From a virus, in the UHGV virus genome UHGV-1340863: 20,038 nt of DNA. The stretch is one strand, 5' to 3'. Below the pieces are notes generated by a model, which was not told the DNA's origin, ran no database searches, and worked only from the letters and a program-made list of their open reading frames with translations. This document shows, in pieces, positions 2,945 to 13,972 of the stretch (the stretch's first letter is position 1; every line of letters starts with the position of its first letter). Both the position numbers and the translations under genes were made by a program.

Positions 2945-2982
2945 ATGCTTGGGTTACATGAGTCAAATAGAAAAAAGATACT

Positions 2983-3010
2983 TGATTTAACAGAGATTTA
3001 TTTTATAAAT
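2983..3010 (+). promoter_or_regulatory. Candidate sigma70 promoter upstream of the TIR gene (TTGATT-N16-TATAAA)
   Basis: TTGATT at 2983-2988 and TATAAA at 3005-3010 with 16-nt spacing in an AT-rich leader. Pattern match only. Confidence 0.25.
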
Positions 3011-3031
3011 GAGAGGGTGCAGAATTACGTA

Positions 3032-3052
3032 GCAATACATGCTGCAATACAT
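3032..3052 (+). repeat. Direct repeat GCAATACAT x2 (candidate integrase arm-type sites, attL side)
   Basis: gcaatacat at 3032-3040 and 3044-3052; the same GCAATACA motif recurs at the other element end (13525-13561). Confidence 0.5.
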
Positions 3053-3162
3053 GGTTAGGGAAAAGCCTTCTTGGCATCGTACAAAAAACAAACCGAATTT
3101 TTTCTAACACAGCCAAGTAAAGCCTCCTTCACTTAATTAGTTAAATTATAAAGGAATATTCA

Positions 3163-4305
3163 ATGAAAATTTTTCTTGCTCATGCAAAAGAAGATGAAAC
3201 GATAACTGAAGAAATCTATGAAAGGCTAAAAAGTGGAGGATATTCCCCTTGGATGGATGTAAAAGATATACCCGCTGGCGTAAACTGGGATTATGAAATC
3301 CAAAAAAACTTCGCTAATTCAAACTTGATAATCCTTATCCTTAGCAAAGTGAGCACTCAGAAAAATGGTTATATTCGCCGCGAAATAAATGACGCCATTG
3401 ATAAACTAAAGTATTACAAACCAGATGATGTGTTCGTGATACCATTACTTATTGATGATTGCGAAGTACCCGCCTACATATCAAGCAAGCTCCAATTCAT
3501 TGATTTTAAGAGAAATGATGGTTGGGACATTTTATCTAGATCTTTAAGATTAGCAGCATCGCAACAAAAACTTGAAATATCTCAAGGTATCACTTATGGG
3601 CCATTTAACTTTAGCAGCGAGGTTTTCAAGGAAGAATATAACAAGATCCCAGGGCATGAAATTGAAATAGCATATCCAAGAATTGAAAGCCATACATTAC
3701 CGAAATCAGCAAAACTCATTAGTGATTACTTTTCAGGAAAAGCGGCTTTACATATTTTTTCTGAACGCACATCACTATGGCCAGGAACACCATATTGGGA
3801 TGAAGAATATAAACACACTTACACTAGTTCCTATAATGAAAGTTATAACATCTCATACTGTAACGAAAATGTCATGAGCATCCTTCATTCCGTACATTGG
3901 TATGGTGCGGGAGCAGCACACCCTAACAGTCATTTTGAAACTAGTAATTTCGTAATAACCAAGGATGACTACGCATACAAATTTAGTTTATGGGATGTAT
4001 TTACCGAAGGGAAAGAGCAAGAAGCGATTAATAAGATAAAACAAAAAATAATCTCTGAATCAGCTCGTGAATTTTGGGAGAAAACTGGTGAAAAACCAAG
4101 TGAGGACGACATTAGTACGTTTGCAACGGGTATCATGGATAGTAACTTAGACTCGTTCACAATAAATAGTGATGGATTTAGATTCCATTTTGCACCTTAC
4201 GAAATTCATGCATATGCTTTTGGTTCTTGGGAATTCTTTATCTCATTCTTTGAAGTAATAGACTTCCTTAAAGAGGATGGAATTTACTCTCTAATAAGGA
4301 GTTAA
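3163..4305 (+). CDS. TIR-domain protein (N-terminal TIR about 135 aa plus about 245-aa C-terminal domain of unknown function); candidate anti-phage NADase-type defence protein
   Basis: 380-aa ORF with AAGGAA Shine-Dalgarno 7 nt upstream of ATG. The N-terminus MKIFLAHAKEDE...GYSPWMDVKDIPAGVNWDYEIQKNFANSNLIILILSKVSTQKNGYIRREINDAIDK...DDVFVIPLLID has the bacterial TIR pattern, with a candidate catalytic Glu near residue 74 in YIRREI. Strongly AT-rich compared with its neighbours. I cannot assign the C-terminal domain by eye. Confidence 0.75.
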   Translation: MKIFLAHAKEDETITEEIYERLKSGGYSPWMDVKDIPAGVNWDYEIQKNFANSNLIILILSKVSTQKNGYIRREINDAIDKLKYYKPDDVFVIPLLIDDCEVPAYISSKLQFIDFKRNDGWDILSRSLRLAASQQKLEISQGITYGPFNFSSEVFKEEYNKIPGHEIEIAYPRIESHTLPKSAKLISDYFSGKAALHIFSERTSLWPGTPYWDEEYKHTYTSSYNESYNISYCNENVMSILHSVHWYGAGAAHPNSHFETSNFVITKDDYAYKFSLWDVFTEGKEQEAINKIKQKIISESAREFWEKTGEKPSEDDISTFATGIMDSNLDSFTINSDGFRFHFAPYEIHAYAFGSWEFFISFFEVIDFLKEDGIYSLIRS

Positions 4306-4314
4306 CATTTCAAT

Positions 4315-4337
4315 AAGCCTGAAATTTAATCAGGCTT
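4315..4337 (+). terminator. Hairpin downstream of the TIR gene (candidate intrinsic terminator)
   Basis: aagcctga (4315-4322) / tcaggctt (4330-4337) with a 7-nt loop, followed by an A/T-rich tail atatacatttcc; begins 10 nt after the TIR stop codon. Confidence 0.4.
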
Positions 4338-4659
4338 ATATACATTTCCTTATGATTAAATTATTGCTGTTCTTAAGCAAAGATGCAGCCAGAAGTAATT
4401 CCCCCTCAAGCTTGCTTGCACACATAAAGAACTGACACAAAACTCTGCTGTAAAGTTGTCTAGCCACACAGCAAAAAACATATGAAACTTTGTTATTCGC
4501 AAACTGCTTGCTCTATATTCCACCATCAAGGCGCATAAAGCAATTGCAATGGCGCAGAAGTAGGCCATAACTATGAAGTGAAGCTAGCGGCGCGTTATTG
4601 GCCGCTTCTGAATAGTGCCTGATTCAACTCAGGGATAAGATTTTTTCTGGTGATAGACC

Positions 4660-4850
4660 GCGACGGATGGCAACAAAACCAGAGAAAGGAAACGACAGAG
4701 GCCAAAAAGCCTGTTTTTAGCACCTGTCGTTTCCTTTCTTTTTAGGGGGTGTTTTTAATAAAAACATTAAGTTACGGCGAAGAAGAACGGAAACGCCTTA
4801 AACAGGAAAATTTTCACAAATAGCAAAAAACTGCGCGCCTGACGCCCCGT
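4660..4850 (-). other. Second, element-borne lambda-type cos site (cosB-like R/I-site region plus variant cosN-like sequence)
   Basis: 4674-4840 aligns by eye, same orientation, with the helper cosB at 19872-20038, differing at roughly 10 positions. The adjacent cgcgcctgacgccccgtaacg (4829-4849) resembles the lambda cosN region (GTTACG GGGCGGCGACCT CGCGGG, from memory) but is variant. Confidence 0.8.
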
Positions 4851-4903
4851 AACGTTCTGGATCGCCGGAAAGGACCCGCCAGCCAGAGCGGGCCCTAATT
4901 TCA

Positions 4904-5287
4904 TCAACCAATCAGCTTATAGCGACCATCCCGTGCATTGCGGCGTACACGCTCAATCTTGAGGCATAGCGCCGCATCTGGCTTTTTTGGGACAGGTACG
5001 CGGCAATATTCAGAAGCGCGAGGAATATTATTTATCCAGTCGATCACTTCACTTAAATACCAGGCCTTACGCCCTTCCGTAACCTGCACACGCTCCGGGA
5101 ACTCTCCACTAGCCTCAAGGTTTAGCAGTGTACGACGACTCAGGGTTGTAATTTCCATCACCTGATTCATATCAACAAGGCGCTCGCTTAAACACATTTT
5201 GTCAGCGATAGCTTTTAATTCCTCTACAGCTTGATTCGGGTACATCATTTCGGCAATTGGCTTAAGGTCATTGTAATCATTCTGCAT
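4904..5287 (-). CDS. AlpA/excisionase-family wHTH protein, cos-adjacent (function unknown; regulator or packaging-redirection candidate)
   Basis: 127-aa ORF with AAGGGGGA SD. The segment ITTLSRRTLLNLEASGEFPERVQVTEGRKAWYLSEVIDWINN has the AlpA/Xis-type HTH signature; the gene ends 54 nt from the element cos. Confidence 0.6.
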   Translation of the reverse strand: MQNDYNDLKPIAEMMYPNQAVEELKAIADKMCLSERLVDMNQVMEITTLSRRTLLNLEASGEFPERVQVTEGRKAWYLSEVIDWINNIPRASEYCRVPVPKKPDAALCLKIERVRRNARDGRYKLIG

Positions 5288-5298
5288 TGTATCCCCCT

Positions 5299-5640
5299 TT
5301 ACACACGAGCCAGCGGCTGAACAGAAATACCTGAGCCAACAAACGCTGCAACCTTTACTGACAGTTCTTTAACAGACTCAGGCCAGTTCAGAGCATCAAC
5401 ATTTAAGACACCTGTCTTATAGACCTGAGCCTGTGTTTTTTTCGCGGTGTCGATTTGTACAGCGGAAACATAAACCGCTTTACCTACGCTCGAACCATCC
5501 CATACCACCAGTGCACCTGTTGCATCTTCCTGCATCAGTGGCGTAAATGCAGGAATTACCCCTTTATTAGCTGAAAATATCCCCAGCGTAGTCACCAGTG
5601 CTTCAGTGCCAGCCATGAGTTCAGTGTAATGAGTAGCCAT
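5299..5640 (-). CDS. Head decoration protein, lambda gpD-like (element-encoded paralogue)
   Basis: 113 aa; TPLMQEDATGALVVWDGSS...YKTGVLNVDALNWPESVKELSVKVAAFVGSGISV aligns with lambda D ([19 protein letters not shown]...[34 protein letters not shown]). AAGGGGGAG SD; start 10 nt after the E-like gene stop. Confidence 0.8.
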   Translation of the reverse strand: MATHYTELMAGTEALVTTLGIFSANKGVIPAFTPLMQEDATGALVVWDGSSVGKAVYVSAVQIDTAKKTQAQVYKTGVLNVDALNWPESVKELSVKVAAFVGSGISVQPLARV

Positions 5641-5649
5641 TGCTCCCCC

Positions 5650-6690
5650 TTAGCCAATGCGAACGGTAACAAAACGATTGATGCGGGCCGGTATTGGCTG
5701 TGGTGCTGAATGTGTCTGCACATATTCAATAGCCGGATCACCAGGCACAATATAGTTTTTCGGTGCAAGTTCGGCTTTAGTCAGCCCCATTCGGATTAGC
5801 TCCGGATCCTGAATACCGCCATAGGCGACAATCCCCTGAAGAGCCGTATTGCCAAGCACCATCAAATCAGGATCAAGGAAATGTTTTTCTGTTCCGTCCT
5901 CGTCGGTATAACGCCCGCTGTAAACAACAATCGCAACATCGCCCATATACCCTTTAAAACTCACCGAATCACCAAGGTCTTTAAGGGCCGTTTCCAGTTC
6001 GGAATTAGAACCACGACGGGTATCCAGAGCCTCTTTTATCGCTCTGAATGAACGGTATTTCTTCCATACATTACCGCCCATAATGATAATATTAGTGACG
6101 CCCTCACTAAATTCTGCGTAGCTCTCAATATCATCATTTGGATCAAAAGTTTCTTTATCCTTACCTGACCACTCAGCACCGCCAGACTGAGTGATGATAT
6201 TTTGTGGTTTAATATTCCAGTCCAGCTCATAACGTTCAATACCATCGCCCTCAATGATATTTTTCCCCGTTGTGATTGCCTGAACAGCAAGCCATTCAAT
6301 ACGTGCACGAATAGCTTTAGCTTGATTTACAATCGCCTGTTTAACTTTAATATTACGCGCCCCAAAAGCATTGTATTGCTCAGGTGATACACCAGCAGGG
6401 CGCACAGCTAACTTATTTGGATCAATGCTGCTTTTCGGCTTCATATAGCCTGGACGAATTGTTTTTGATTCGTACCCTTCGTCACGTGAAACTTTACTAC
6501 CCACCATAGGAGAACAAAACGCTGCAATTGGGATATTTGGATCGTCGATTGTATCAAGAATAATATCGCGCGATTCAAACATTACCGAGCGAGTAAAAAA
6601 CAAACTGGTAAACAACGCATTTAGTTGTTTTTGTACATCTACAGCATTAACCACCTGTACAAGCTGAGTAGGCGAATATAAATCAACCAT
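5650..6690 (-). CDS. Major capsid protein, lambda gpE-like (element-encoded, diverged paralogue of the interrupted helper E)
   Basis: Aligns with lambda E along its whole length, e.g. NIITQSGGAEWSGKDKETFDPNDDIESYAEF vs NNITQSGGTEWSKRDKSTYDPTDDIEAYALN, and FRAIKEALDTRRGSNSELETALKDLG...GDVAIVVYSG vs FKAVKEKLDTRRGSNSELETAVKDLG...GDVAIVVYSG. Start set at ATG 6688-6690 (MVDLYSPTQL..., SD AGAGG) rather than the ORF-track start at 6864; 346 aa vs 341 for E. Confidence 0.85.
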   Translation of the reverse strand: MVDLYSPTQLVQVVNAVDVQKQLNALFTSLFFTRSVMFESRDIILDTIDDPNIPIAAFCSPMVGSKVSRDEGYESKTIRPGYMKPKSSIDPNKLAVRPAGVSPEQYNAFGARNIKVKQAIVNQAKAIRARIEWLAVQAITTGKNIIEGDGIERYELDWNIKPQNIITQSGGAEWSGKDKETFDPNDDIESYAEFSEGVTNIIIMGGNVWKKYRSFRAIKEALDTRRGSNSELETALKDLGDSVSFKGYMGDVAIVVYSGRYTDEDGTEKHFLDPDLMVLGNTALQGIVAYGGIQDPELIRMGLTKAELAPKNYIVPGDPAIEYVQTHSAPQPIPARINRFVTVRIG

Positions 6691-6864
6691 ACGCATCCTC
6701 TTTGCATTCATTAAAAATAATTGTGGATATATGCTATCACCGATATTTGTCATGCGAATACATGCAACCGAGTGCAATGTTGTATAAAGTTTTGGGGTGA
6801 CAACTTCAGTGCGGAAAATTAGTGTTAATATCTTCACTCCCTTTGGTCGGGATTTATGTAGCAT

Positions 6865-6899
6865 GCCGGAAAATTTATTTTTTCCGGCCTTTTTTTATT
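6865..6899 (+). terminator. Strong intrinsic-terminator-like hairpin, active in plus orientation
   Basis: gccggaaaa (6865-6873) / ttttccggc (6880-6888) stem followed by a run of T residues (6889-6899). On the minus strand the stem is not followed by a U-tract. Confidence 0.5.
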
Positions 6900-6907
6900 G
6901 GCAATAT

Positions 6908-7357
6908 TTAAAACGGGATATCATCTCCCCATTGCTCATTATCTCCCACTGGTGGCTGGCTTCCTTGCTGATCTGCCTGTTGTTTTGCTCTGTTCAGTGC
7001 GTCAGTAGCCTGCCCCTGTTGGCCTTTATTGCCGCCCGGTCGCACCGATCGCGCACTGATTACGCTGTCTGCGATAACCTGCCAGCCCTGCCGCGTTTCG
7101 CCGTTCTGTCCAGTCCACTGGCTCATCTGCATGTTACCCGCCACGCTCAGGAGTTCGCCTTTGTGATGCTTTGCCAGCGCGTCGGCTTGTCTGCCAAACG
7201 CCAGGACAGATAACCACATCGTCGCCTGACCGTCATCCGACTGACTGCAGGGCAGTGATACCGCCATACGCGCCAGCGTCATGGGGGTGCCCTTGCTGGT
7301 CTGTTTTGTCTGCGGGTCGTCCACCAACCGCCCGTAAACTGATATTTGCGCCGTCAT
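6908..7357 (-). CDS. ssb: Single-stranded DNA-binding protein (SSB)
   Basis: 149 aa; N-terminal OB-fold-like region (ISVYGRLVDDPQ..., WTGQNGETRQGWQVIADSV), Gly/Gln-rich linker and the hallmark acidic C-terminal tail ...WGDDIPF. GGAGAG SD; ATGA overlap with the upstream ORF. Confidence 0.8.
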   Translation of the reverse strand: MTAQISVYGRLVDDPQTKQTSKGTPMTLARMAVSLPCSQSDDGQATMWLSVLAFGRQADALAKHHKGELLSVAGNMQMSQWTGQNGETRQGWQVIADSVISARSVRPGGNKGQQGQATDALNRAKQQADQQGSQPPVGDNEQWGDDIPF

Positions 7358-7599
7358 GCTGCCTGCTCTCCGGACTTAATATTGATTGTTGTCACTTCCT
7401 CCGCTTCAGCAATCTCCCGTTCGGTCAGAGTGGCAAAGTTTGCAGCCGCCGTTGTCATGAATGCGCTAATCAGTTCGGGATGTGCTTTCGCGTATCCTTC
7501 CCCGGCGTTGCGGTCGATGATTTTTATCGACACCCTTAACCAGTGTTCCGTCAAATCAAGGGCGTGCGATTGTGATTTTTTTGTGTGCTTCGCTGTCAT
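7354..7599 (-). CDS. Hypothetical protein (81 aa), translationally coupled to ssb
   Basis: ORF between the iteron cluster and ssb; its stop overlaps the ssb start (ATGA). No recognisable motif; weak RBS. Confidence 0.45.
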   Translation of the reverse strand: MTAKHTKKSQSHALDLTEHWLRVSIKIIDRNAGEGYAKAHPELISAFMTTAAANFATLTEREIAEAEEVTTINIKSGEQAA

Positions 7600-7650
7600 A
7601 GGCTTTATCTCACAGCAGTAAATTAAAATTTTTGCGTTTTAACCCTTCAC

Positions 7651-7873
7651 CTGTTCACCTTTTGATATTTTCTCTTTTAATTCATAATGTTAATTGGTGA
7701 ACAGTTTCACAAAAACTATTCACCAACTGTTCACCACTGTTCACCCTTGAAGCTCAATAAACAATCAAAAAGGTGAACAGTGAATAGTTTGGTGAACAGT
7801 TCATAAATAACTGTTCACCCTATAATATACTGATATAAAAGATATTTATGACAGGGTGAACAGTGGTGAACAG
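7651..7873. repeat. Iteron cluster: at least 9 copies of GGTGAACAG/CTGTTCACC in both orientations; candidate satellite origin of replication
   Basis: Copies at 7651-7659, 7696-7704, 7727-7735, 7737-7745, 7772-7780, 7791-7799, 7811-7819, 7855-7863 and 7865-7873, embedded in AT-rich DNA immediately downstream of the replication-protein gene. Confidence 0.8.
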
Positions 7874-7886
7874 TTATTCCATAAGT

Positions 7887-9707
7887 TTAATTTTTGCTAT
7901 CGTCATTAGTGACCGATACACATGATGGCATCCAGTCTTCTGATTCCTCCGTCAGTGTCACGTTTGAACGCAAACCGTGCTTCGTTTTCCGTTTCATATA
8001 CTCCCTGCCATATTCCGCCATTGCCCCCGGCATATCTTTACCGAAGCGCGTCAGTGTTACAGGTTTACCAAACCCATGTGCCCTCATATAAGCCAGATAG
8101 GCATGATAGAGATACCTGCGTGGGCTGAATGGCACAATTTCAGCATTACCCACTAACAGGCCATCACACATTACCGATGCCATGAGATAGCCGCAGAAGT
8201 CCACCAGCGAATCCCCCTCTCGCTTTATCGCCAGTGCTTCTTCAGATTTCTGCTGCTCATATAACAGGCGTCTGGCTTCGTCCTGATCAGCAAACCGTGT
8301 AAGCAGATGGCGAATCACTACCGCCAGCTCACCTTCTATTTTTTCCGCCAGCATCGAATCGCGTTCGTTCTCCGGTACAACTTCCGAAAAATTGAATATC
8401 ACCCGACGACGTGAGATCCCCCCGCTGCGGTCACTGAATGACATGGCGTTATTGTTAACCGCCAGCACTACTGCCGGAATACGCGTTGAATAGGGGGCTT
8501 TGTGTTTCGGGTCAATTGCCACCTTGTCACCGCCTGTAATGGCCTTAATCCCTGCCCCATCACCAGCGTAGCGGGTCATATCCGGCATGATAATCAGCGA
8601 AAAGCCAACCACTAACGCACGTTCCCTTGCATCTTCCAGCGCCTTCATGCTTGCTGATACTGTATTAGCCTTACCCGCCAGCATGGTGCAAATCTCCGCC
8701 ATCACACTTTTACCACTTCCCCCCGGCCCTGTTACCTCAATGAATAACTGCCAGTCGTACCGGTTCGCCAGCACCATGAATAATGCCGCCAGTACGCGAT
8801 CTGCCTTGCGGTCATTCTCAGCCACCGAACGGCGCAACCACTTCCAGAAATTCGGCGCATGTGTTGCCAGCGTTTCCCCCTCTGCTGGTGGGCTGAAAGG
8901 TAATTCACTGGCAATTAACAACCAGTCGTTTTTGTTATGCTCCCGAAAGTTACCAGTTCTGGTATCAAATACCCCGTTACTGAATCCAATCAGGTTACGG
9001 GCTGTATTCCCCATTACAGGCAAACTTAACTTCATGGTATCTACCGCCGATTTAATAGCGTTCTGCGAATAGCTGATCTCCGCATCAATGAAAATCTGCG
9101 CCATAGCACGCTGTAACTCTTTATCCTGAACCGGCTCCCATACAACGCCGTTGTAATGATGAACGGTGTCAGAGTCGGCATTGATTGCCAGTTCGCCGCC
9201 GTAATGTGCAAGGAGAACTTCACCGCGCTGGCTGGCCCCCATCTGATTCAACGCCAAAGATGAAGCACGCTCGTCATTTTTGCGCTCAGCCTTCTTAACT
9301 GGCAGTTCAATCACCAGACTTTCCCCATGCTCCGCTTCAGCTTTTAGGCCGACAAGGCGCGGAGTCCAGTCTTCAGGCTCTCGATCAACAAAGCTACGGT
9401 AACAACGTGCTTCCTTTACGCCTGCAATAGCAAGTAATGTCGCAACCTTCGTCAGACTTTTCTCTGCAATCTTTCCGGCACGATAAACACGCACATAATG
9501 ACGGCCTTCATCGATAATTTGCATATCATCCAGGTTTTCCAGTTGTTCCGTACCCAGAATGACTGGTGGTGTATCATCTGCTGCAATATGCTTACCTGCC
9601 CATTCATTCCATTCTTTTGCATGGCTCCAGGCATCACTGCCAGCAAAAATGATGACTTCCGTCATTTTGTCGCGCGGTTGGTATTTTAAGTTCGGAGCAC
9701 GTTTCAT
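7887..9707 (-). CDS. Replication initiator: D5/P4-alpha-type SF3 helicase-primase (PICI Pri-Rep-like)
   Basis: 606 aa; Walker A motif VTGPGGSGKS with a downstream hydrophobic stretch ending in acidic residues (LIIMPDM); overall resemblance to the C-terminal NTPase of phage/plasmid primases. GGAGGT SD; ATGA overlap with the upstream small ORF; iterons directly downstream. Confidence 0.75.
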   Translation of the reverse strand: MKRAPNLKYQPRDKMTEVIIFAGSDAWSHAKEWNEWAGKHIAADDTPPVILGTEQLENLDDMQIIDEGRHYVRVYRAGKIAEKSLTKVATLLAIAGVKEARCYRSFVDREPEDWTPRLVGLKAEAEHGESLVIELPVKKAERKNDERASSLALNQMGASQRGEVLLAHYGGELAINADSDTVHHYNGVVWEPVQDKELQRAMAQIFIDAEISYSQNAIKSAVDTMKLSLPVMGNTARNLIGFSNGVFDTRTGNFREHNKNDWLLIASELPFSPPAEGETLATHAPNFWKWLRRSVAENDRKADRVLAALFMVLANRYDWQLFIEVTGPGGSGKSVMAEICTMLAGKANTVSASMKALEDARERALVVGFSLIIMPDMTRYAGDGAGIKAITGGDKVAIDPKHKAPYSTRIPAVVLAVNNNAMSFSDRSGGISRRRVIFNFSEVVPENERDSMLAEKIEGELAVVIRHLLTRFADQDEARRLLYEQQKSEEALAIKREGDSLVDFCGYLMASVMCDGLLVGNAEIVPFSPRRYLYHAYLAYMRAHGFGKPVTLTRFGKDMPGAMAEYGREYMKRKTKHGLRSNVTLTEESEDWMPSCVSVTNDDSKN

Positions 9708-9991
9708 TTGTTACCTCCGGCAACTAACATTGCCCGAATTTTACGGATATAGCCTGCGGCACGCCTCTGATTATCTGTCTTGCAATTTTTTACCAGAATG
9801 AAATCTCTTTCGAACTGCTGACGCGGCATAACACATTCAAAATCATAACCATCACGCAAATAAGAGACACGACGATCATCAACCGAAATAATCTTTACCC
9901 GATAGCCATAGCTGTCTTTGAAAATATCCCCAAGGCTGATTTTTGAATGAGTTTGACCGCTGGCAATAAAGCCAGAAAATTTATTTTTCAT
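9704..9991 (-). CDS. Hypothetical protein (95 aa), replication operon
   Basis: ORF in an operon-like array with stop/start overlap to the helicase-primase gene; no recognisable motif. Confidence 0.5.
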   Translation of the reverse strand: MKNKFSGFIASGQTHSKISLGDIFKDSYGYRVKIISVDDRRVSYLRDGYDFECVMPRQQFERDFILVKNCKTDNQRRAAGYIRKIRAMLVAGGNK

Positions 9992-9994
9992 TTT

Positions 9995-10219
9995 TTATTC
10001 TCCGGTATAGCTCTGGTCGTGTATTTTTATAGCTTCATCCAGCTCTTTGATGACAGGATCAAGTAACGTAATTAACGCTCCAGCTAAATTAGCATCCCGT
10101 TCATCGTGTTCCGCATTTGTTGTCCCATCAAGCCAGGTTGATAAGATTTCTCGCATATTTTTGCCACAAACGAGCGCGTTTTCAGCATGTGTCAGCACTT
10201 TAAAATAAAGATCATTCAT
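9995..10219 (-). CDS. Hypothetical protein (74 aa), replication operon
   Basis: Strong AGGAGGTG SD upstream of ATG at 10217-10219; overlaps the end of the upstream ORF by 8 nt. Confidence 0.5.
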   Translation of the reverse strand: MNDLYFKVLTHAENALVCGKNMREILSTWLDGTTNAEHDERDANLAGALITLLDPVIKELDEAIKIHDQSYTGE

Positions 10220-10577
10220 GGCACACCTCCTGACGAATACGGGCGGCGAATATCATCACGTAGCCAGTTGGGAATTGCTGGCGGGCTTCCTGTTCGCTGG
10301 CGGCCTCGATGTGTATTACGCGTGGTTGTGCGGTGCTCAGGGCGATAAAACGCCAGATGAAATTGTTTTCGCATTTCTGAATAAACAGCGTGTTTTCTTC
10401 ACGCCCTTTCCAGAAAGCCGCAGTATAGCCCATCTCCTTAACCATCTTGCGGGCATCAACCAGCGTGTCAGCGGCAACATGTACCGTAGTTGCTCCATCT
10501 GCCATGCGGTCGTGGTGTAGTGCCAGAAAGGTGTATATAAATTTAGGGTGAGTTTGGGTATGCTGTGTTCCAGCCAT
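10212..10577 (-). CDS. Hypothetical protein (121 aa), first gene of the leftward replication operon
   Basis: C-terminal 121 codons of the 304-aa track ORF, starting at ATG 10575-10577 (MAGTQHTQTH...) with a GAGGT SD. The long N-terminal extension in the track overlaps the operator region and the divergent gene and is rejected. Confidence 0.5.
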   Translation of the reverse strand: MAGTQHTQTHPKFIYTFLALHHDRMADGATTVHVAADTLVDARKMVKEMGYTAAFWKGREENTLFIQKCENNFIWRFIALSTAQPRVIHIEAASEQEARQQFPTGYVMIFAARIRQEVCHE

Positions 10578-10664
10578 AATCGTTACCTCGTTTAACGGTT
10601 TGGTTAGAAGCCCGGTTAGTGTTCGCGCACTGCCGGGTTTCGTCGTTTTTATGAATCGATCATT

Positions 10665-10766
10665 GTGAGATACATAGCGACCATGATGTGAGATATACAT
10701 TATATTGTGGTGATATACATTGCAAGTGTTTTTATATCTCACTTTTGTGTATAGTGATATACACAT
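10665..10766. promoter_or_regulatory. Operator-like repeat cluster (GTGAGATA(TA)CAT x5, one inverted) in a divergent promoter region
   Basis: gtgagatacat 10665-10675, gtgagatatacat 10688-10700, gtgatatacat 10710-10720, inverted tatatctcac 10733-10742, gtgatatacacat 10754-10766; lies between the divergent genes starting at 10577 (-) and 10786 (+). Confidence 0.6.
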
Positions 10767-10785
10767 AACAAATTGGTGATTAACT

Positions 10786-11088
10786 ATGTCTGTATACAAA
10801 AATGCAAAATCGCAAATGACAACGATCAGGGTTCCCCACGATGTTATGGAGGGCATGGAATCCGTAAAACTGGACGGCGAAAGCAACGCCGGATTCATAG
10901 TAACCGCCATGCGCGGTGAGATCGCCCGCCGCCAGGCAGAAGGAAGCGGAGAAAATCCCCTCGTGTCTTCACTGGATGCCTTAGCTAAGGTCGAACAAAT
11001 CGGCATCAAGGCAGCGGAGGAAATCGGGCAACTCGTAGCCGTCGCTCGTGAAGAACTCCAGCGGCGTAAAGCCAAAGAATCTGAATAA
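10786..11088 (+). CDS. Putative small DNA-binding regulator (possible ribbon-helix-helix fold), divergent from the replication operon
   Basis: 100-aa ORF with GGTGA SD; N-terminal TTIRVPHDVMEGMESV resembles an RHH beta-strand/helix start. Position next to the operator repeats fits a repressor or activator role. Fold assignment is a guess. Confidence 0.45.
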   Translation: MSVYKNAKSQMTTIRVPHDVMEGMESVKLDGESNAGFIVTAMRGEIARRQAEGSGENPLVSSLDALAKVEQIGIKAAEEIGQLVAVAREELQRRKAKESE

Positions 11089-11097
11089 TTACTATCA

Positions 11098-11124
11098 GCG
11101 CCGTGATGTGAGTAACTACGGCGC
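11098..11124 (+). terminator. Hairpin downstream of the regulator gene
   Basis: gcgccgt (11098-11104) / acggcgc (11118-11124) stem with 13-nt loop, 10 nt after the stop codon; the downstream tail is only moderately T-rich. Confidence 0.35.
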
Positions 11125-11438
11125 ATTGCTATGTAAATACTGGCAATAAACAGAAAAGGTAGTTCTACTCCGAATAATTTTATCTGACACTACTCCTGAA
11201 CTAACATGCGCTTATCTTACAGGATATAAATATAGATCCATAAAATCACGATTAAATAAAGTCGCTCCAAACATAAACCACACCCAACGCTTAACAAGAT
11301 AGCAACAAACAGATAAATAACTTGCAGAAATATTTATCGCAAGGATTATCATTATTAATTACAAATCACTTTACCAAGTCATTCCCCTCTCTTATCATAA
11401 AGAGAAAGTAATAAATAAGTTAAGGGAGTTAGAATACT

Positions 11439-11975
11439 ATGAATCTAAAAAAAATAGCCACAAACATAAAAAACAAGATAATAGAAACATTCAATAAACT
11501 TATATTAGAGGCATCTAAAACCCCCACACAAGATGAAATTAAAATACTTGAGAGAAGAAGTAAAAAGTTTAATTACTCCTTTTTCTCATACGCAGTCACA
11601 GGAGCCATAATGGTTTTTTGCTCTCAACCATTAATAAAATACGCAAACCCAATGCTTATTTTATTGAGTGGTCTGTTACTGTCTATCATCATTATCCTTC
11701 TCAGAATGATTTATATTTCACAAGCGAATGCATCATGGACAACCAAAAAACGTTCACATGTACTAGTTCATTTTCTTTCTGCATGTTTCATAGCGTCAAC
11801 ATTGACGTTGTTATATCAGGCTTACGATAATAACATCACACACAAATTGTACTGTAAAAATATACAACAACTTATTGAAAAAAGGATAGAAACAGAAAAA
11901 AATATCAGCATATTCAGTGGGATGCAATGCACCCCGGCATATGATTACTCTTTATTTGGATTTAATCTCTTATAA
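11439..11975 (+). CDS. AT-rich multi-pass membrane protein (178 aa), function unknown; cargo gene candidate
   Basis: Three hydrophobic helices (AVTGAIMVFCSQPLI, MLILLSGLLLSIIIILLRMIYI, VLVHFLSACFIASTLTLLYQAY); GGGAG SD upstream; strongly AT-rich island (about 11100-12040) flanked by GC-richer element genes. Confidence 0.6.
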   Translation: MNLKKIATNIKNKIIETFNKLILEASKTPTQDEIKILERRSKKFNYSFFSYAVTGAIMVFCSQPLIKYANPMLILLSGLLLSIIIILLRMIYISQANASWTTKKRSHVLVHFLSACFIASTLTLLYQAYDNNITHKLYCKNIQQLIEKRIETEKNISIFSGMQCTPAYDYSLFGFNLL

Positions 11976-12044
11976 AGAATGTTATTACTGATTTGAGTGC
12001 AAATTCTCAAATCAGTAATTCATAATATTTTATTCTGAGATAAT

Positions 12045-12272
12045 TTAAACTACCCACTCACCTCGAATCCATGCCTGCACTTCTGAAAGACGATATGCAA
12101 CAGCAGTGGAGCCAATCTTGATCCGCTTAGGAAATTTCCCTTCCTTCTCCAGCTTCCAGCGTGTGCTGTTCGCAAGAGTGGTTAGCTCCCGACATTCTTT
12201 CTCACGGATCATACGATCGATGTTAGGAATGTACTCCAGACCCTTTTTATCAACAATCGCCATTTTTTTCAT
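12045..12272 (-). CDS. AlpA-family HTH protein (excisionase / transcriptional activator candidate)
   Basis: 75 aa; LTTLANSTRWKLEKEGKFPKRIKIGSTAVAYRLSEVQAWIRGE matches the AlpA/Xis HTH pattern (..EGKFPKP.K.G.R...W...E.Q.WI); directly downstream of int. Confidence 0.75.
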   Translation of the reverse strand: MKKMAIVDKKGLEYIPNIDRMIREKECRELTTLANSTRWKLEKEGKFPKRIKIGSTAVAYRLSEVQAWIRGEWVV

Positions 12273-12273
12273 G

Positions 12274-13509
12274 TTAACCAGCCTTTTGTTTGAGGATTAT
12301 CACTTTTGAATCAGCACCTGCGATGCTATTGAGATATGTAGTCCAGAGTTCCAGAGCATCCAGTTTTTTAGCCATAAACTTACTCCGGTTGTAAACACCT
12401 GCCACGCCAGGTAGCGCATGGCCTAACAGTTGTTCTACTACATAAAATTCAACACCGAGATCACTTAGATGAGTAGATAGCGTTCTTCTAAGGTCGTGTA
12501 GTGACCATTGTTTTTCATGGCCCAAACGTTTACCGATTTTCCCCCCAATCTTGCTTACGCTTTCTCTAATTCGCAGACTTCCCAGCACATAACCAGTATG
12601 TTTTGTCTCTTCGTGAACATCCGTTACCCACTGTCGTAGAATTTCAGGTACTGGTCTGACGATTTCAACACCAGTTTTTGAGTGATCTTTTGGTACAGTC
12701 CAAACCCAACTTTCGAGATCCCATTCGCTCCATTCTGATAATCGGGCTTCACTCATTCGACATCCAAATACTGTACAAAGTACAAACATTTTTCGCGTGT
12801 ATTCAGACATTAGTTTTAAATCAGGCTCGACAAAAATTGCTTTCCAGAGCTGGCCCAGCTCGGCTTCATCCAGAACCCGATCCCGCTTACCTGCAATCTG
12901 CCCCACATCACTCATGCGCAAATCCTTTAAAGCATCACACGTCGCGTACTGGCGTACCCGACAAAAACGAAGAGCTAATTTAGTGTCAGAAAAAACATAC
13001 GCCGCCATAACTGGTGCATTACGTTTAATTCGGTCAAAACAGTCCAGCCATTCATATAGGTGAGTGTCATTTACAGGCAAATGACCGATATAGGGAAAAA
13101 TATGCTTTCGAAATCTGCCAAGCGTTACAGCATGAGTTTTACGACGCACCTTACAGTAATTTTCATACCAGTAATTTAGTGCATCCTCCACTGTGACCGG
13201 CTTTAAGCGTTCTTCAGCCTGAATCTTAATCTGGATACGCGGATCACGTTTGTCAGCCAACCAACCACGGCACTCGTCGCGCTTTTCCCTTGCCTGTTTG
13301 AGTGACATATCAGGATATTTACCCAACGTTAGCCAGACCGGAGCAGCCCGGCCACCTGCTAACCTGTAGAAGAAAACAAAGCTCACAGCCCCCTTGGTAC
13401 TCACACGAATAGAAAGCCCCTTTCCATCAGCAATGGTGATCTGCTTTTCTCTGGGTTTCCCCAGATATCCTTTAAGTGCTTTGTCGCTCAGTTTGTTCTC
13501 GCCAGCCAT
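12274..13509 (-). CDS. int: Tyrosine site-specific integrase (P4-type, N-terminal arm-binding domain)
   Basis: 411 aa from ATG 13507-13509 (MAGENKLSDK...); C-terminal catalytic region with HDLRRT and LLGH motifs plus a downstream Tyr; terminal gene of the element, beside the right junction. Confidence 0.88.
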   Translation of the reverse strand: MAGENKLSDKALKGYLGKPREKQITIADGKGLSIRVSTKGAVSFVFFYRLAGGRAAPVWLTLGKYPDMSLKQAREKRDECRGWLADKRDPRIQIKIQAEERLKPVTVEDALNYWYENYCKVRRKTHAVTLGRFRKHIFPYIGHLPVNDTHLYEWLDCFDRIKRNAPVMAAYVFSDTKLALRFCRVRQYATCDALKDLRMSDVGQIAGKRDRVLDEAELGQLWKAIFVEPDLKLMSEYTRKMFVLCTVFGCRMSEARLSEWSEWDLESWVWTVPKDHSKTGVEIVRPVPEILRQWVTDVHEETKHTGYVLGSLRIRESVSKIGGKIGKRLGHEKQWSLHDLRRTLSTHLSDLGVEFYVVEQLLGHALPGVAGVYNRSKFMAKKLDALELWTTYLNSIAGADSKVIILKQKAG

Positions 13510-13524
13510 TTTAAGCCCCAAAAA

Positions 13525-13561
13525 GCAATACAAGCTGCAATACAGAGATGATTGCAACACA
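13525..13561 (+). repeat. Direct repeats GCAATACA x2 plus GCAACACA (candidate integrase arm-type sites, attR side / int leader)
   Basis: gcaataca at 13525-13532 and 13537-13544, gcaacaca at 13554-13561; same motif and orientation as 3032-3052 at the opposite end. Confidence 0.5.
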
Positions 13562-13641
13562 CAGATAACGAGGAAAATCCAGTGAAAGCGCCAGATAGAC
13601 TTATTCTTTATTATCAAAAGATTAAGTGTAAAAACCAGCAA

Positions 13642-13917
13642 CTACACGAAAGCCTCAGAAAGCCATGCTAAGTGCTTCGGCTTGACATATCCCGGCGTAA
13701 ATTCAGAGGTGGAGCCGCCACGGGAACGGATAACCTCACCGGAAACAATCGGCGAAACGTACAGCGCCATGTTTACCAGTCCCGGAATTTGTGAGAGATA
13801 GACTTTCTCCGTGGTGAAGGGATAGCTCTCACGGAAAAAGAGACGCAGAAACAGCGGATCAAACTTAAATTTCTGCTCATTTGCCGCCAGCAGCTGGGCG
13901 GTTGTGTACATCGACAT
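13642..13917 (-). pseudogene. E: Major capsid protein E, N-terminal 82 codons fused to 9 element-derived codons and a stop
   Basis: MSMYTTAQLLAANEQKFKFDPLFLRLFFRESYPFTTEKVYLSQIPGLVNMALYVSPIVSGEVIRSRGGSTSEFTPGYVKPKH matches lambda E 1-82, then LAWLSEAFV-stop encoded by element sequence (13642-13671). Confidence 0.9.
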
Positions 13918-13972
13918 AAAAAAATCCCGTAAAAAAAGCCGCACAGGCGGCCTTTAGTGATGAAGGGTAAAG

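What the first reader, a model, noticed from the sequence alone, without database searches (positions are those of the whole stretch)
10577..10786. Divergent promoter region with five GTGAGATA(TA)CAT operator-like repeats controlling the replication operon
Four direct copies and one inverted copy of a 11-13 nt motif lie between a putative RHH-like regulator gene (+) and the leftward operon (three small ORFs, then helicase-primase, ori, ssb). It looks like the element's main induction switch, and may respond to a helper-encoded signal.
Basis: partly seen in the sequence, partly recalled or inferred. Interest (0 to 1): 0.45.

Follow-up and report, generated by a model that had tools for sequence, protein, structure and literature searches.

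The report
Satellite's repressor operators plus antisense RNA
This 210-bp control region of a phage satellite embedded in an E. coli prophage holds five conserved binding sites, most likely for the small DNA-binding protein encoded next door, laid over two back-to-back promoters, plus an overlooked antisense RNA gene; together they probably keep the satellite's replication genes off, a kind of repressor whose existence in Gram-negative satellites a 2018 paper called unclear.

Summary
Five copies of RTGAKATA lie at 10665, 10688, 10710, 10735-42 (inverted) and 10754. There are 7 matches in 20 kb against 0.77 expected, and 5 of them fall within 97 nt, spaced about 22 bp apart.

In related elements from E. 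coli, Yersinia and Enterobacter all five copies keep their position and orientation while the spacers diverge (37/40 against 11/36 invariant columns). Across 35 loci the repeat sequence changes with the allele of the adjacent 100-aa YlcI/YnfO protein. It does not change with AlpA, integrase, the Icd-like gene or the DUF4222 gene. The protein models as ribbon-helix-helix plus a long helix.

The sites overlap a leftward promoter (-35 TTGCAA) and the regulator's own -10 (TATAGT). The most likely reading is repression of the Icd-like/primase operon plus autoregulation.

It is antisense to the ribosome-binding site and start codon of the first leftward gene. It resembles SymR but is not a member of that family.

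The element is a known helper-embedded PICI. The same module sits in the model island EcCICFT073 and I found no description of it. No binding or regulation experiment exists, and the helper-signal idea is untested.

The parts
10665..10675 (+). Operator copy O1 (GTGAGATACAT; core 10665-10672). It lies about +16 to +26 of the inferred leftward transcript.
   Evidence: The core is invariant in 7/8 columns across 5 loci.
10688..10700 (+). Operator copy O2 (GTGAGATATACAT; core 10688-10695). It overlaps the -10 edge and inferred start of the leftward promoter P_L.
   Evidence: The core is invariant in 8/8 columns. It aligns with the left arm of the inverted-repeat operator of relatives.
10710..10720 (+). 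Operator copy O3 (GTGATATACAT). It lies in the -35/-10 spacer of P_L and abuts the -35 hexamer.
   Evidence: The core is invariant in 7/8 columns. It aligns with TGAAACACAC|GTCAAG of relatives.
10730..10742 (-). Operator copy O4, inverted (GTGAGATATAAAA on the minus strand; core 10735-10742). It lies between the P_L -35 and the P_R -10.
   Evidence: inverted repeats I9, I12. The core is invariant in 8/8 columns.
10754..10766 (+). Operator copy O5 (GTGATATACACAT). It overlaps the end of the P_R -10 and the inferred P_R start.
   Evidence: The core is invariant in 7/8 columns. A motif copy directly after the -10 is found in most of the related loci.
10720..10725 (-). Inferred -35 of the leftward promoter P_L (TTGCAA; relatives have TTGACG, TTGACA, TTGAAA or TTGATG).
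   Evidence: The position is conserved across loci and 5/6 columns are invariant. The strict consensus scan did not call it.
10697..10704 (-). Inferred -10 of P_L. Either TAATGT (10702-10697, 17-nt spacer, the position conserved in relatives as TAACAT/TAATAT) or TATAAT (10704-10699, 15-nt spacer).
   Evidence: Read and by alignment with relatives. This is an inference with no transcript data.
10750..10755 (+). Inferred -10 of the regulator's own promoter P_R (TATAGT; relatives have TATAAT or TATACT). It has no good -35.
   Evidence: Invariant in 6/6 columns. The conserved block TGTGTATAAT + motif copy is seen.
10786..11088 (+). Gene for the 100-aa YlcI/YnfO-N family protein. It has an RHH domain (residues about 11-54) plus a long C-terminal helix (58-99). 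It is the candidate operator-binding repressor.
10571..10650 (+). Candidate cis-antisense small RNA of about 80 nt. It has a stem enclosing a hairpin whose loop carries the anti-Shine-Dalgarno CCUC, then a GC-rich terminator hairpin and a U-run. It is fully complementary to the 5' UTR, ribosome-binding site and start codon of the Icd-like gene.
   Evidence: Sub-threshold Rfam symR hit at 35.3 bits, E 1.6e-4, repeated in L002, L012 and L005. MFE -33.9 kcal/mol, z -5.95. Of 25 pairs, 11 carry compensatory changes, and 0/500 shuffles reach the observed covariation. 96% of cells pair on the + strand against 79% on the minus strand. This segment is found in 942 E. coli genomes.
10559..10564 (+). 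Inferred -10 (TATGCT) of the antisense RNA promoter. It lies inside codons 5-7 of the Icd-like gene.
   Evidence: TAnnnT is conserved at the same distance from the start codon in all loci, although the encoded N-termini differ.
10212..10577 (-). First gene of the leftward operon, an Icd-like protein of 121 aa with a tandem Icd-like domain.
   Evidence: NCBIfam phage_ICD_like at 77.8 bits. RefSeq annotation. PHROGs hits.
7887..10219 (-). Rest of the tightly packed leftward operon: 74-aa ORF (9995-10219), DUF4222 (9704-9991) and D5_N/Pox_D5/P4-type primase-helicase (7887-9707).
   Evidence: Adjacent ORFs overlap by 4-8 nt.

Best explanation
The interval is the regulatory hub of a helper-embedded PICI satellite and has two parts.

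(1) Positions 10660-10770 hold two back-to-back promoters. P_L runs leftward into the Icd-like / DUF4222 / primase-helicase operon. P_R runs rightward into the 100-aa gene. Five operator sites spaced about 22 bp apart cover both promoters. The 100-aa YlcI/YnfO-type ribbon-helix-helix protein probably oligomerises through its long C-terminal helix and binds these sites on one face of the DNA. O3 and O2 would occlude the -35/-10 spacer and the -10/start of P_L, with O1 about 20 bp inside the transcript, so the replication operon is repressed. O4 and O5 bracket the -10 of P_R, so the protein limits its own synthesis.

(2) Positions 10571-10650 encode a probably constitutive antisense RNA of about 80 nt. 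Its loop carries the anti-Shine-Dalgarno sequence. It would pair with any leaky P_L transcript across the ribosome-binding site and AUG of the Icd-like gene and so act as a second lock.

Shown here: the sites, their conservation, their co-variation with the regulator allele, the RHH fold, and the strand-specific RNA structure. Inferred: the promoter assignments, binding by this protein, the direction of regulation, and the action of the RNA. How repression is lifted is unknown. Candidates are a helper-encoded or AlpA-driven antirepressor, or read-through from the alpA promoter.
For: Footprint: cores are invariant in 37/40 columns against 11/36 for spacers, across E. coli, Yersinia and Enterobacter copies.

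All 35 loci examined share one scaffold: sRNA terminator, then repeats abutting a conserved TTGAC-type -35 on the minus strand, then a T-tract, then TATAAT-like -10 plus a motif copy, then SD and regulator ATG. The repeat sequence itself differs by locus.

The repeat class follows the predicted DNA-reading strand of the regulator:
- L/M-T/F-T-V/I-R gives GTGA[AGT]A[CT]ACAC
- S-L/V-T-A-R-I gives GTGTAAK
- K-N-V/I-R gives GTGTGYAT
- Q-L-N-A-R-F gives TGGTATTCAC
- Q-I-S-I-R-I gives GTGTGATTYA
- A-L-K-A-R-V (EcCICFT073) gives GTGTGGCCCAC

Module shuffling:
- Identical regulators share a motif even when AlpA is 24% and Int 26% identical (L030/L031).
- Loci with 97% AlpA and 88-100% Int, and in one pair with 89% first gene and 95% DUF4222 as well, carry different motifs when the regulator differs (L030/L033, L035/L021).

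The ori iterons are a different sequence, TGTTCACC, located elsewhere.

Confidence: 0.68

Rival explanations
1. The RHH protein does bind the repeats, but the module is local housekeeping and not the induction switch. It autoregulates and keeps a toxic Icd-like protein silent, in the manner of a toxin-antitoxin pair: an Icd-like 'toxin' with a SymR-like type I antisense antitoxin, alongside an RHH autoregulator. Induction is decided elsewhere, by helper-induced AlpA.
Against: The operon behind P_L contains the primase-helicase and runs on toward ssb, so whatever controls P_L controls replication. No conserved toxin gene follows the RHH gene; the downstream ORF varies or is absent. Toxicity of the Icd-like protein has not been tested.
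Confidence: 0.25
2. The RHH protein acts as an activator or a bidirectional switch, as P22 Mnt does. It would turn one divergent promoter on while turning the other off, instead of repressing both.
For: P_R has no recognisable -35, and P_L is weak by consensus in this allele. Relative to each inferred start there are also sites centred near -47 and -69, positions compatible with activation (computed coordinates). From my own knowledge, P22 Mnt represses Pant and stimulates Pmnt.
Against: For both promoters, sites also lie at about -3 and about -24, which are classical occlusion positions. In most relatives P_L has a good TTGACG -35 with the inverted repeat directly over the spacer and start.
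Confidence: 0.12
3. The repeats are bound by something other than the adjacent protein: AlpA, the Icd-like protein (PHROGs label its family 'transcriptional repressor'), the primase as iterons, or a host factor.
For: The Icd-like domain hits PHROG families labelled transcriptional repressor. AlpA is the known PICI activator. Arrays of repeats near replication genes can be iterons.
Against: The motif does not follow the AlpA, integrase, Icd-like or DUF4222 alleles, but it does follow the regulator allele. The real iterons are TGTTCACC at 7650-7880. A host factor would not need a different motif in each allele class within the same species.
Confidence: 0.05

Closest known systems
Phage P22 immI region (Mnt and Arc RHH repressors, divergent Pant/Pmnt, sar antisense RNA). 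This comparison is from my own knowledge.
   Same: Small RHH repressors bind operators laid over two divergent promoters. Mnt combines an RHH domain with a C-terminal helical oligomerisation domain, like the 100-aa protein modelled here. A short antisense RNA blocks translation of a gene in the repressed operon.
   Different: There is no family membership: no Pfam Arc or Mnt hit, hhalign to Arc is only marginal and to Mnt nil. Here there are five sites at about 22-bp spacing instead of one 21-bp operator. The antisense RNA covers the first gene's start. The controlled operon is replication, not an antirepressor.
Stl/Rpr master repressors of Gram-positive PICIs (SaPIs)
   Same: A repressor gene is transcribed divergently from the satellite's replication operon and keeps the island quiescent (description in PMC6092414).
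   Different: No relationship to Stl was tested here. From memory, Stl proteins are larger helix-turn-helix repressors, whereas this protein is RHH. Derepression by a helper protein is demonstrated for Stl and untested here. Gram-negative PICIs are reported to rely on the activator AlpA.
SymR antisense RNA of the E. coli SymE/SymR type I toxin-antitoxin pair (Rfam RF01809)
   Same: It is a cis-antisense RNA of about 77-80 nt that begins just inside the ORF and covers the start codon and Shine-Dalgarno sequence. It has two helical elements and ends in a terminator. Full-length sub-threshold matches recur in four independent loci.
   Different: Scores are 32-39 bits against a gathering score of 61, so it is not a member. 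The target protein is annotated Icd-like, whereas SymE (from memory) is an AbrB-fold protein; the two proteins were not compared here. No LexA box lies in the region.
Phage P1 immI (c4 RNA - icd - ant) and the P4 CI/seqA immunity RNAs
   Same: An Icd-type first gene of an operon is held down by a small RNA. Some relatives (L024) do carry C4 and isrK RNAs inside the first leftward gene.
   Different: The window has no C4, isrK or c4-a1b1 hit at gathering threshold, and none among the E <= 10 hits in 9900-11500. The RNA here is cis-antisense from its own promoter, not processed from the sense transcript.
Helper-embedded PICI '11capE' type (Tommasini, Mageeney and Williams 2023, PMC10111431) and EcCICFT073
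   Same: The organisation is the same: int, alpA, a variable zone, primase/ori/ssb, then capsid and decoration genes. The island is about 10.7 kb and inserted in the lambda-E-like capsid gene of a lambdoid prophage. EcCICFT073 carries the same YlcI/YnfO - Icd-like divergent module.
   Different: Term searches and the sections I read in those papers turned up no mention of the regulator, its operators or this antisense RNA.

Membership tests
Ribbon-helix-helix (RHH/MetJ-Arc) DNA-binding fold | An N-terminal strand followed by two helices, superposable on solved RHH domains | tested here: met
Ribbon-helix-helix (RHH/MetJ-Arc) DNA-binding fold | A dimer whose paired strands insert into the major groove, with sequence-specific DNA binding | not testable with these tools
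   Only a monomer could be modelled, and no binding assay is available. The indirect support is that the motif co-varies with the strand residues.
YlcI/YnfO family (NCBIfam NF041551, N-terminal domain) | Score above the curated cut-off | tested here: met
   70.5 bits against a cut-off of 30, over residues 8-49. PHROG 6522, labelled unknown function, matches at 205 bits.
Arc/Mnt repressor families (Pfam) | Significant profile match | tested here: not met
   No Pfam family hit at E <= 0.01, and none relevant at E <= 10. hhalign to Arc gives E 0.007 with probability 5.5%, and to Mnt E 0.12.
SymR (Rfam RF01809) | Covariance-model score at or above the gathering threshold of 61 bits | tested here: not met
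   35.3 bits in the window and 32-38.7 bits in L005, L012 and L002.
C4 / isrK (P1/P4-type immunity RNAs) | Rfam hit at the gathering threshold in the regulatory zone | tested here: not met
   No gathering-level hit in the whole window. The relative L024 does have both.
Gram-negative PICI / helper-embedded PICI | Integrase plus AlpA, primase with downstream ori, a size of about 10-20 kb, and integration inside a helper prophage late gene | tested here: met
   Int, AlpA, primase, iteron-rich ori, ssb, capsid and decoration genes are present. The capsid pseudogene is split on both sides of the island, matching the description in PMC10111431.
Type II toxin-antitoxin (RHH antitoxin) | A conserved, co-transcribed toxin gene immediately downstream of the RHH gene | tested here: not met
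   In the window the next + strand ORF starts 350 nt downstream and has no family match. In relatives that position holds unrelated 57-80-aa ORFs or nothing.
Replication iterons | The same repeat as at the element's ori, bound by the initiator | tested here: not met
   The ori repeats are GGTGAACAGT/ACTGTTCACC, at least 11 copies at 7650-7880, and are unlike RTGAKATA.

The most novel reading that the evidence does not exclude
YlcI/YnfO-type RHH proteins are the missing master repressors of Gram-negative PICIs, the counterpart of Stl. They would form an exchangeable repressor-operator cassette with at least six DNA-specificity ('immunity') classes, backed by a SymR-like antisense RNA. Lifting this repression, through a helper-encoded or AlpA-driven factor, would be the real commitment step of satellite induction. 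The module is present, and I found no description of it, in the model island EcCICFT073.
Probability: 0.3. Interest if true: 0.7.

Novelty: new member of a known kind. Interest (0 to 1): 0.5.

Why it matters
[quoted passage not shown] This region offers a concrete candidate that is easy to test. It is a small RHH protein with mapped operator sites over the replication-operon promoter, plus an antisense RNA. The module is conserved across Enterobacterales satellites and is present in EcCICFT073. The allele classes with matching operator variants predict specific specificity-swap experiments. They would also explain how several related satellites can coexist in one cell without cross-regulation. 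Finally, this gives a first functional hypothesis for the YlcI/YnfO family, which current libraries label 'unknown function'.

Tried and rejected
1. Megablast against the phage collection found nothing. A distant search with the sRNA segment found only a few satellite-like or prophage records.
2. The consensus promoter scan found no sigma-70 site in 10350-11250. The promoters are therefore assigned by comparative position only.
3. De novo k-mer counting in the intergenic regions was swamped by T-rich runs. It was replaced by anchored inspection and fixed-pattern counts.
4. Profile search against PDB sequences gave no RHH hit, only a weak helix-hairpin-helix-like match of the C-terminal half to Hef.
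6. The iteron hypothesis was rejected because the ori repeats are different.
7. SOS control through LexA was rejected because no LexA box lies in the region.
8. A link to the helper prophage's own YnfO was checked. BLASTP shows no significant similarity to the 100-aa protein, and I saw no motif copy on reading the nohA-ynfO intergenic (cos) region.
9. Literature searches for YlcI/YnfO, for Icd-like plus antisense RNA, and for PICI plus ribbon-helix-helix found no functional description. One search failed on a short term.

Full report
WHAT THE WINDOW IS

The window is E. coli chromosome and is 100% identical over 9600-11400 to several complete genomes. RefSeq annotation of one of them shows an island of about 10.7 kb (window about 2954-13672) inserted in the lambda-E-like major capsid gene of a lambdoid prophage, whose two pseudogene halves flank the island. 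From right to left the island carries:
- integrase (12274-13641, minus strand) and AlpA (12045-12272, minus strand)
- a 178-aa ORF and the 100-aa gene (both + strand)
- a leftward operon of an Icd-like gene (10212-10577), a 74-aa ORF, DUF4222, and a D5_N/Pox_D5/P4-type primase-helicase (7887-9707)
- an iteron-rich gap, an 81-aa ORF and ssb
- a capsid gene, a head-decoration gene, a second AlpA-like gene and a TIR-domain gene

This is the 'helper-embedded PICI' type at the capsid-E site described by Tommasini, Mageeney and Williams (PMC10111431). The element itself is known. Term searches and the sections I read in that paper turned up no mention of the regulatory region examined here.

THE OBSERVATION

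GTGAKATA occurs 7 times in the window against 0.77 expected, no shuffle reached 7, and 5 of the 7 lie within 97 nt. Core centres are 20-24 bp apart, so all sites face one side of the helix.

WHETHER THE REPEATS ARE FUNCTIONAL

I collected 35 related loci through the neighbouring protein. Elements from E. coli, Yersinia and Enterobacter whose regulator has the strand KSQMTT[ILV]R[VI]P keep all five TGAKATA copies at the same positions and orientations, while the spacers between them diverge. Core columns are invariant in 37/40 cases against 11/36 for spacers (p = 1.3e-8).

All loci share one scaffold:
- the terminator of a small RNA
- repeats abutting a conserved TTGAC-type hexamer on the minus strand
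- a T-tract
- a TATAAT-like hexamer followed at once by another repeat copy
- a Shine-Dalgarno sequence and the regulator ATG

The repeat sequence itself differs from locus to locus.

WHO BINDS

The repeat class follows the regulator allele:
- Strand L/M-T/F-T-V/I-R goes with GTGA[AGT]A[CT]ACAC. The window's GTGATATACAC belongs here. Within this class Met goes with T and Leu with C at site position 7, with one degenerate exception.
- S-L/V-T-A-R-I goes with GTGTAAK.
- K-N-V/I-R goes with GTGTGYAT in a direct-direct-inverted layout.
- Q-L-N-A-R-F goes with TGGTATTCAC.
- Q-I-S-I-R-I goes with GTGTGATTYA.
- A-L-K-A-R-V (EcCICFT073) goes with GTGTGGCCCAC.

Natural module shuffling separates the candidates:
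- L030 and L031 have identical regulators and the same motif, but 24% AlpA and 26% integrase identity.
- L030 and L033 share AlpA (97%) and integrase (88%) but differ in regulator and motif.
- L035 and L021 share AlpA (97%), integrase (100%), first leftward gene (89%) and DUF4222 (95%), but differ in regulator (74%) and motif.
- The window shares its motif with L030 although their first leftward genes are only 24% identical.

The motif therefore tracks the 100-aa protein and nothing else nearby. A host factor is unlikely for the same reason. The replication iterons are a different sequence (GGTGAACAGT/ACTGTTCACC, at least 11 copies, 7650-7880). Because regulator and sites are adjacent, part of this association could be linkage, so it is strong circumstantial evidence and not proof.

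THE PROTEIN

The long C-terminal helix suggests oligomerisation, as in Mnt, and two-turn site spacing recalls NikR (both from my own knowledge). Short natural forms of 59-64 aa, with the RHH domain only, also exist, including in EcCICFT073.

PROMOTERS (INFERRED)

On the minus strand, TTGCAA (10725-10720) aligns with the TTGACG/TTGACA of relatives. Seventeen nt downstream lies TAATGT (10702-10697), where relatives have TAACAT or TAATAT. A perfect TATAAT lies at 15-nt spacing. The leftward start would be near 10690.

Relative to that start, O3 is in the spacer, O2 is at the -10/start and O1 is near +20. The regulator's own -10 is TATAGT (10750-10755), with O4 in its spacer region and O5 at its start. 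These positions argue for repression of the replication operon and negative autoregulation.

The strict consensus scan called no promoter, and P_R lacks a -35, so an activating or Mnt-like dual role remains possible.

THE MISSED PART: AN ANTISENSE RNA

Positions 10571-10650 on the + strand give a full-length but sub-threshold match to SymR (35.3 bits, gathering score 61). The same match is found at the same place in three relatives. The sequence folds into a stem enclosing a hairpin whose 7-nt loop is CCUCGUU (anti-Shine-Dalgarno), followed by a GC-rich terminator and a U-run (-33.9 kcal/mol, z -5.95).

In 16 diverse loci the consensus structure has 25 pairs, 11 of them with compensatory changes, and 0 of 500 shuffles reach the observed covariation. 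The structure is strand-specific: 96% of cells pair on the + strand against 79% on the minus strand, with 66 G-U cells and no A-C cells.

A TAnnnT -10 (TATGCT, 10559-10564) lies inside codons 5-7 of the leftward gene. It is kept even where the encoded N-terminus differs. The RNA is perfectly complementary to the 5' UTR, ribosome-binding site and AUG of the Icd-like gene. This segment is present in 942 of 5426 complete E. coli genomes, whereas the full repeat region is present in only 47. The RNA module is therefore general and the operator module is allele-specific. No LexA box is present.

COMPARISON WITH KNOWN SYSTEMS

It works most like the P22 immI region, which has RHH repressors over divergent promoters plus the sar antisense RNA. 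In role it resembles Stl of Gram-positive PICIs, and in its RNA part SymE/SymR or P1 c4-icd. It is not a member of the Arc, Mnt, SymR or C4 families by the tests run here.

The model Gram-negative PICI EcCICFT073 carries the same divergent YlcI/YnfO - Icd-like module with its own repeats. [quoted passage not shown] Literature searches found no functional description of this protein family or of this RNA.

VERDICT

The operator, RHH-regulator and operon reading is well supported by comparative evidence. The claims of a 'main switch' and a 'helper signal' are open. The kind of mechanism is classical, so the finding is a new member of a known kind. It is still a useful, testable lead for satellite biology.

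Noticed in passing
window about 2954-13672 (flanks 2165-2953 and 13673-13918): The whole island is a PICI of about 10.7 kb inserted inside the major capsid gene of a lambdoid prophage, and it carries its own capsid and decoration genes. This matches the published helper-embedded PICI type.
   Followed up: yes
window 7650-7880: The origin region between the primase and the 81-aa gene has at least 11 copies of GGTGAACAGT/ACTGTTCACC in both orientations. From memory, the octamer TGTTCACC is the P4 type I iteron.
   Followed up: partly
window 7606-7613 (minus strand): A single exact GTGAGATA lies a few nt upstream of the ATG of the 81-aa gene, next to the ori. It could be an isolated extra operator half-site or chance.
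   Followed up: no
window 3163-4305 (+): A TIR-domain protein gene lies at the far end of the island, with weak matches to retron-TIR and Thoeris ThcB4 models. It is probably anti-phage cargo.
   Followed up: no
window 4904-5287 (minus strand): A second, longer AlpA-family gene (127 aa) lies downstream of the capsid and decoration genes, in addition to the AlpA next to the integrase.
   Followed up: no
L008, L010, L011, L012, L020 (about 60-70 nt upstream of the operator repeats): Several relatives have a perfect DnaA box (TGTGGATAA) between the sRNA terminator and the operators. The window has none at that place.
   Followed up: no
L024 3436-3634 (minus strand): One relative carries isrK (80 bits) and C4 (75 bits) immunity-type RNAs inside its first leftward gene, as well as the SymR-like antisense RNA. 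That makes two RNA control layers in one element.
   Followed up: no
L036 5474-5653 (EcCICFT073, NC_004431 1380473-1380652): The model PICI EcCICFT073 has a short (59-aa, RHH-only) version of the regulator, divergent from an Icd-like gene. Its own repeats are GGTGTGGCCCAC twice plus one copy after the -10.
   Followed up: partly
window 10786-11088, residues 45-86: The C-terminal half of the regulator has a weak helix-hairpin-helix-like match to the Hef HhH domain (E 0.0075), around LDALAKVEQIGIKAAEEI.
   Followed up: no
window 10212-10577 and 10387-10405: The Icd-like protein here is a tandem duplication of the Icd-like domain, whereas relatives have a single 65-66-aa copy. A terminator-like hairpin on the minus strand lies inside the gene.
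   Followed up: no
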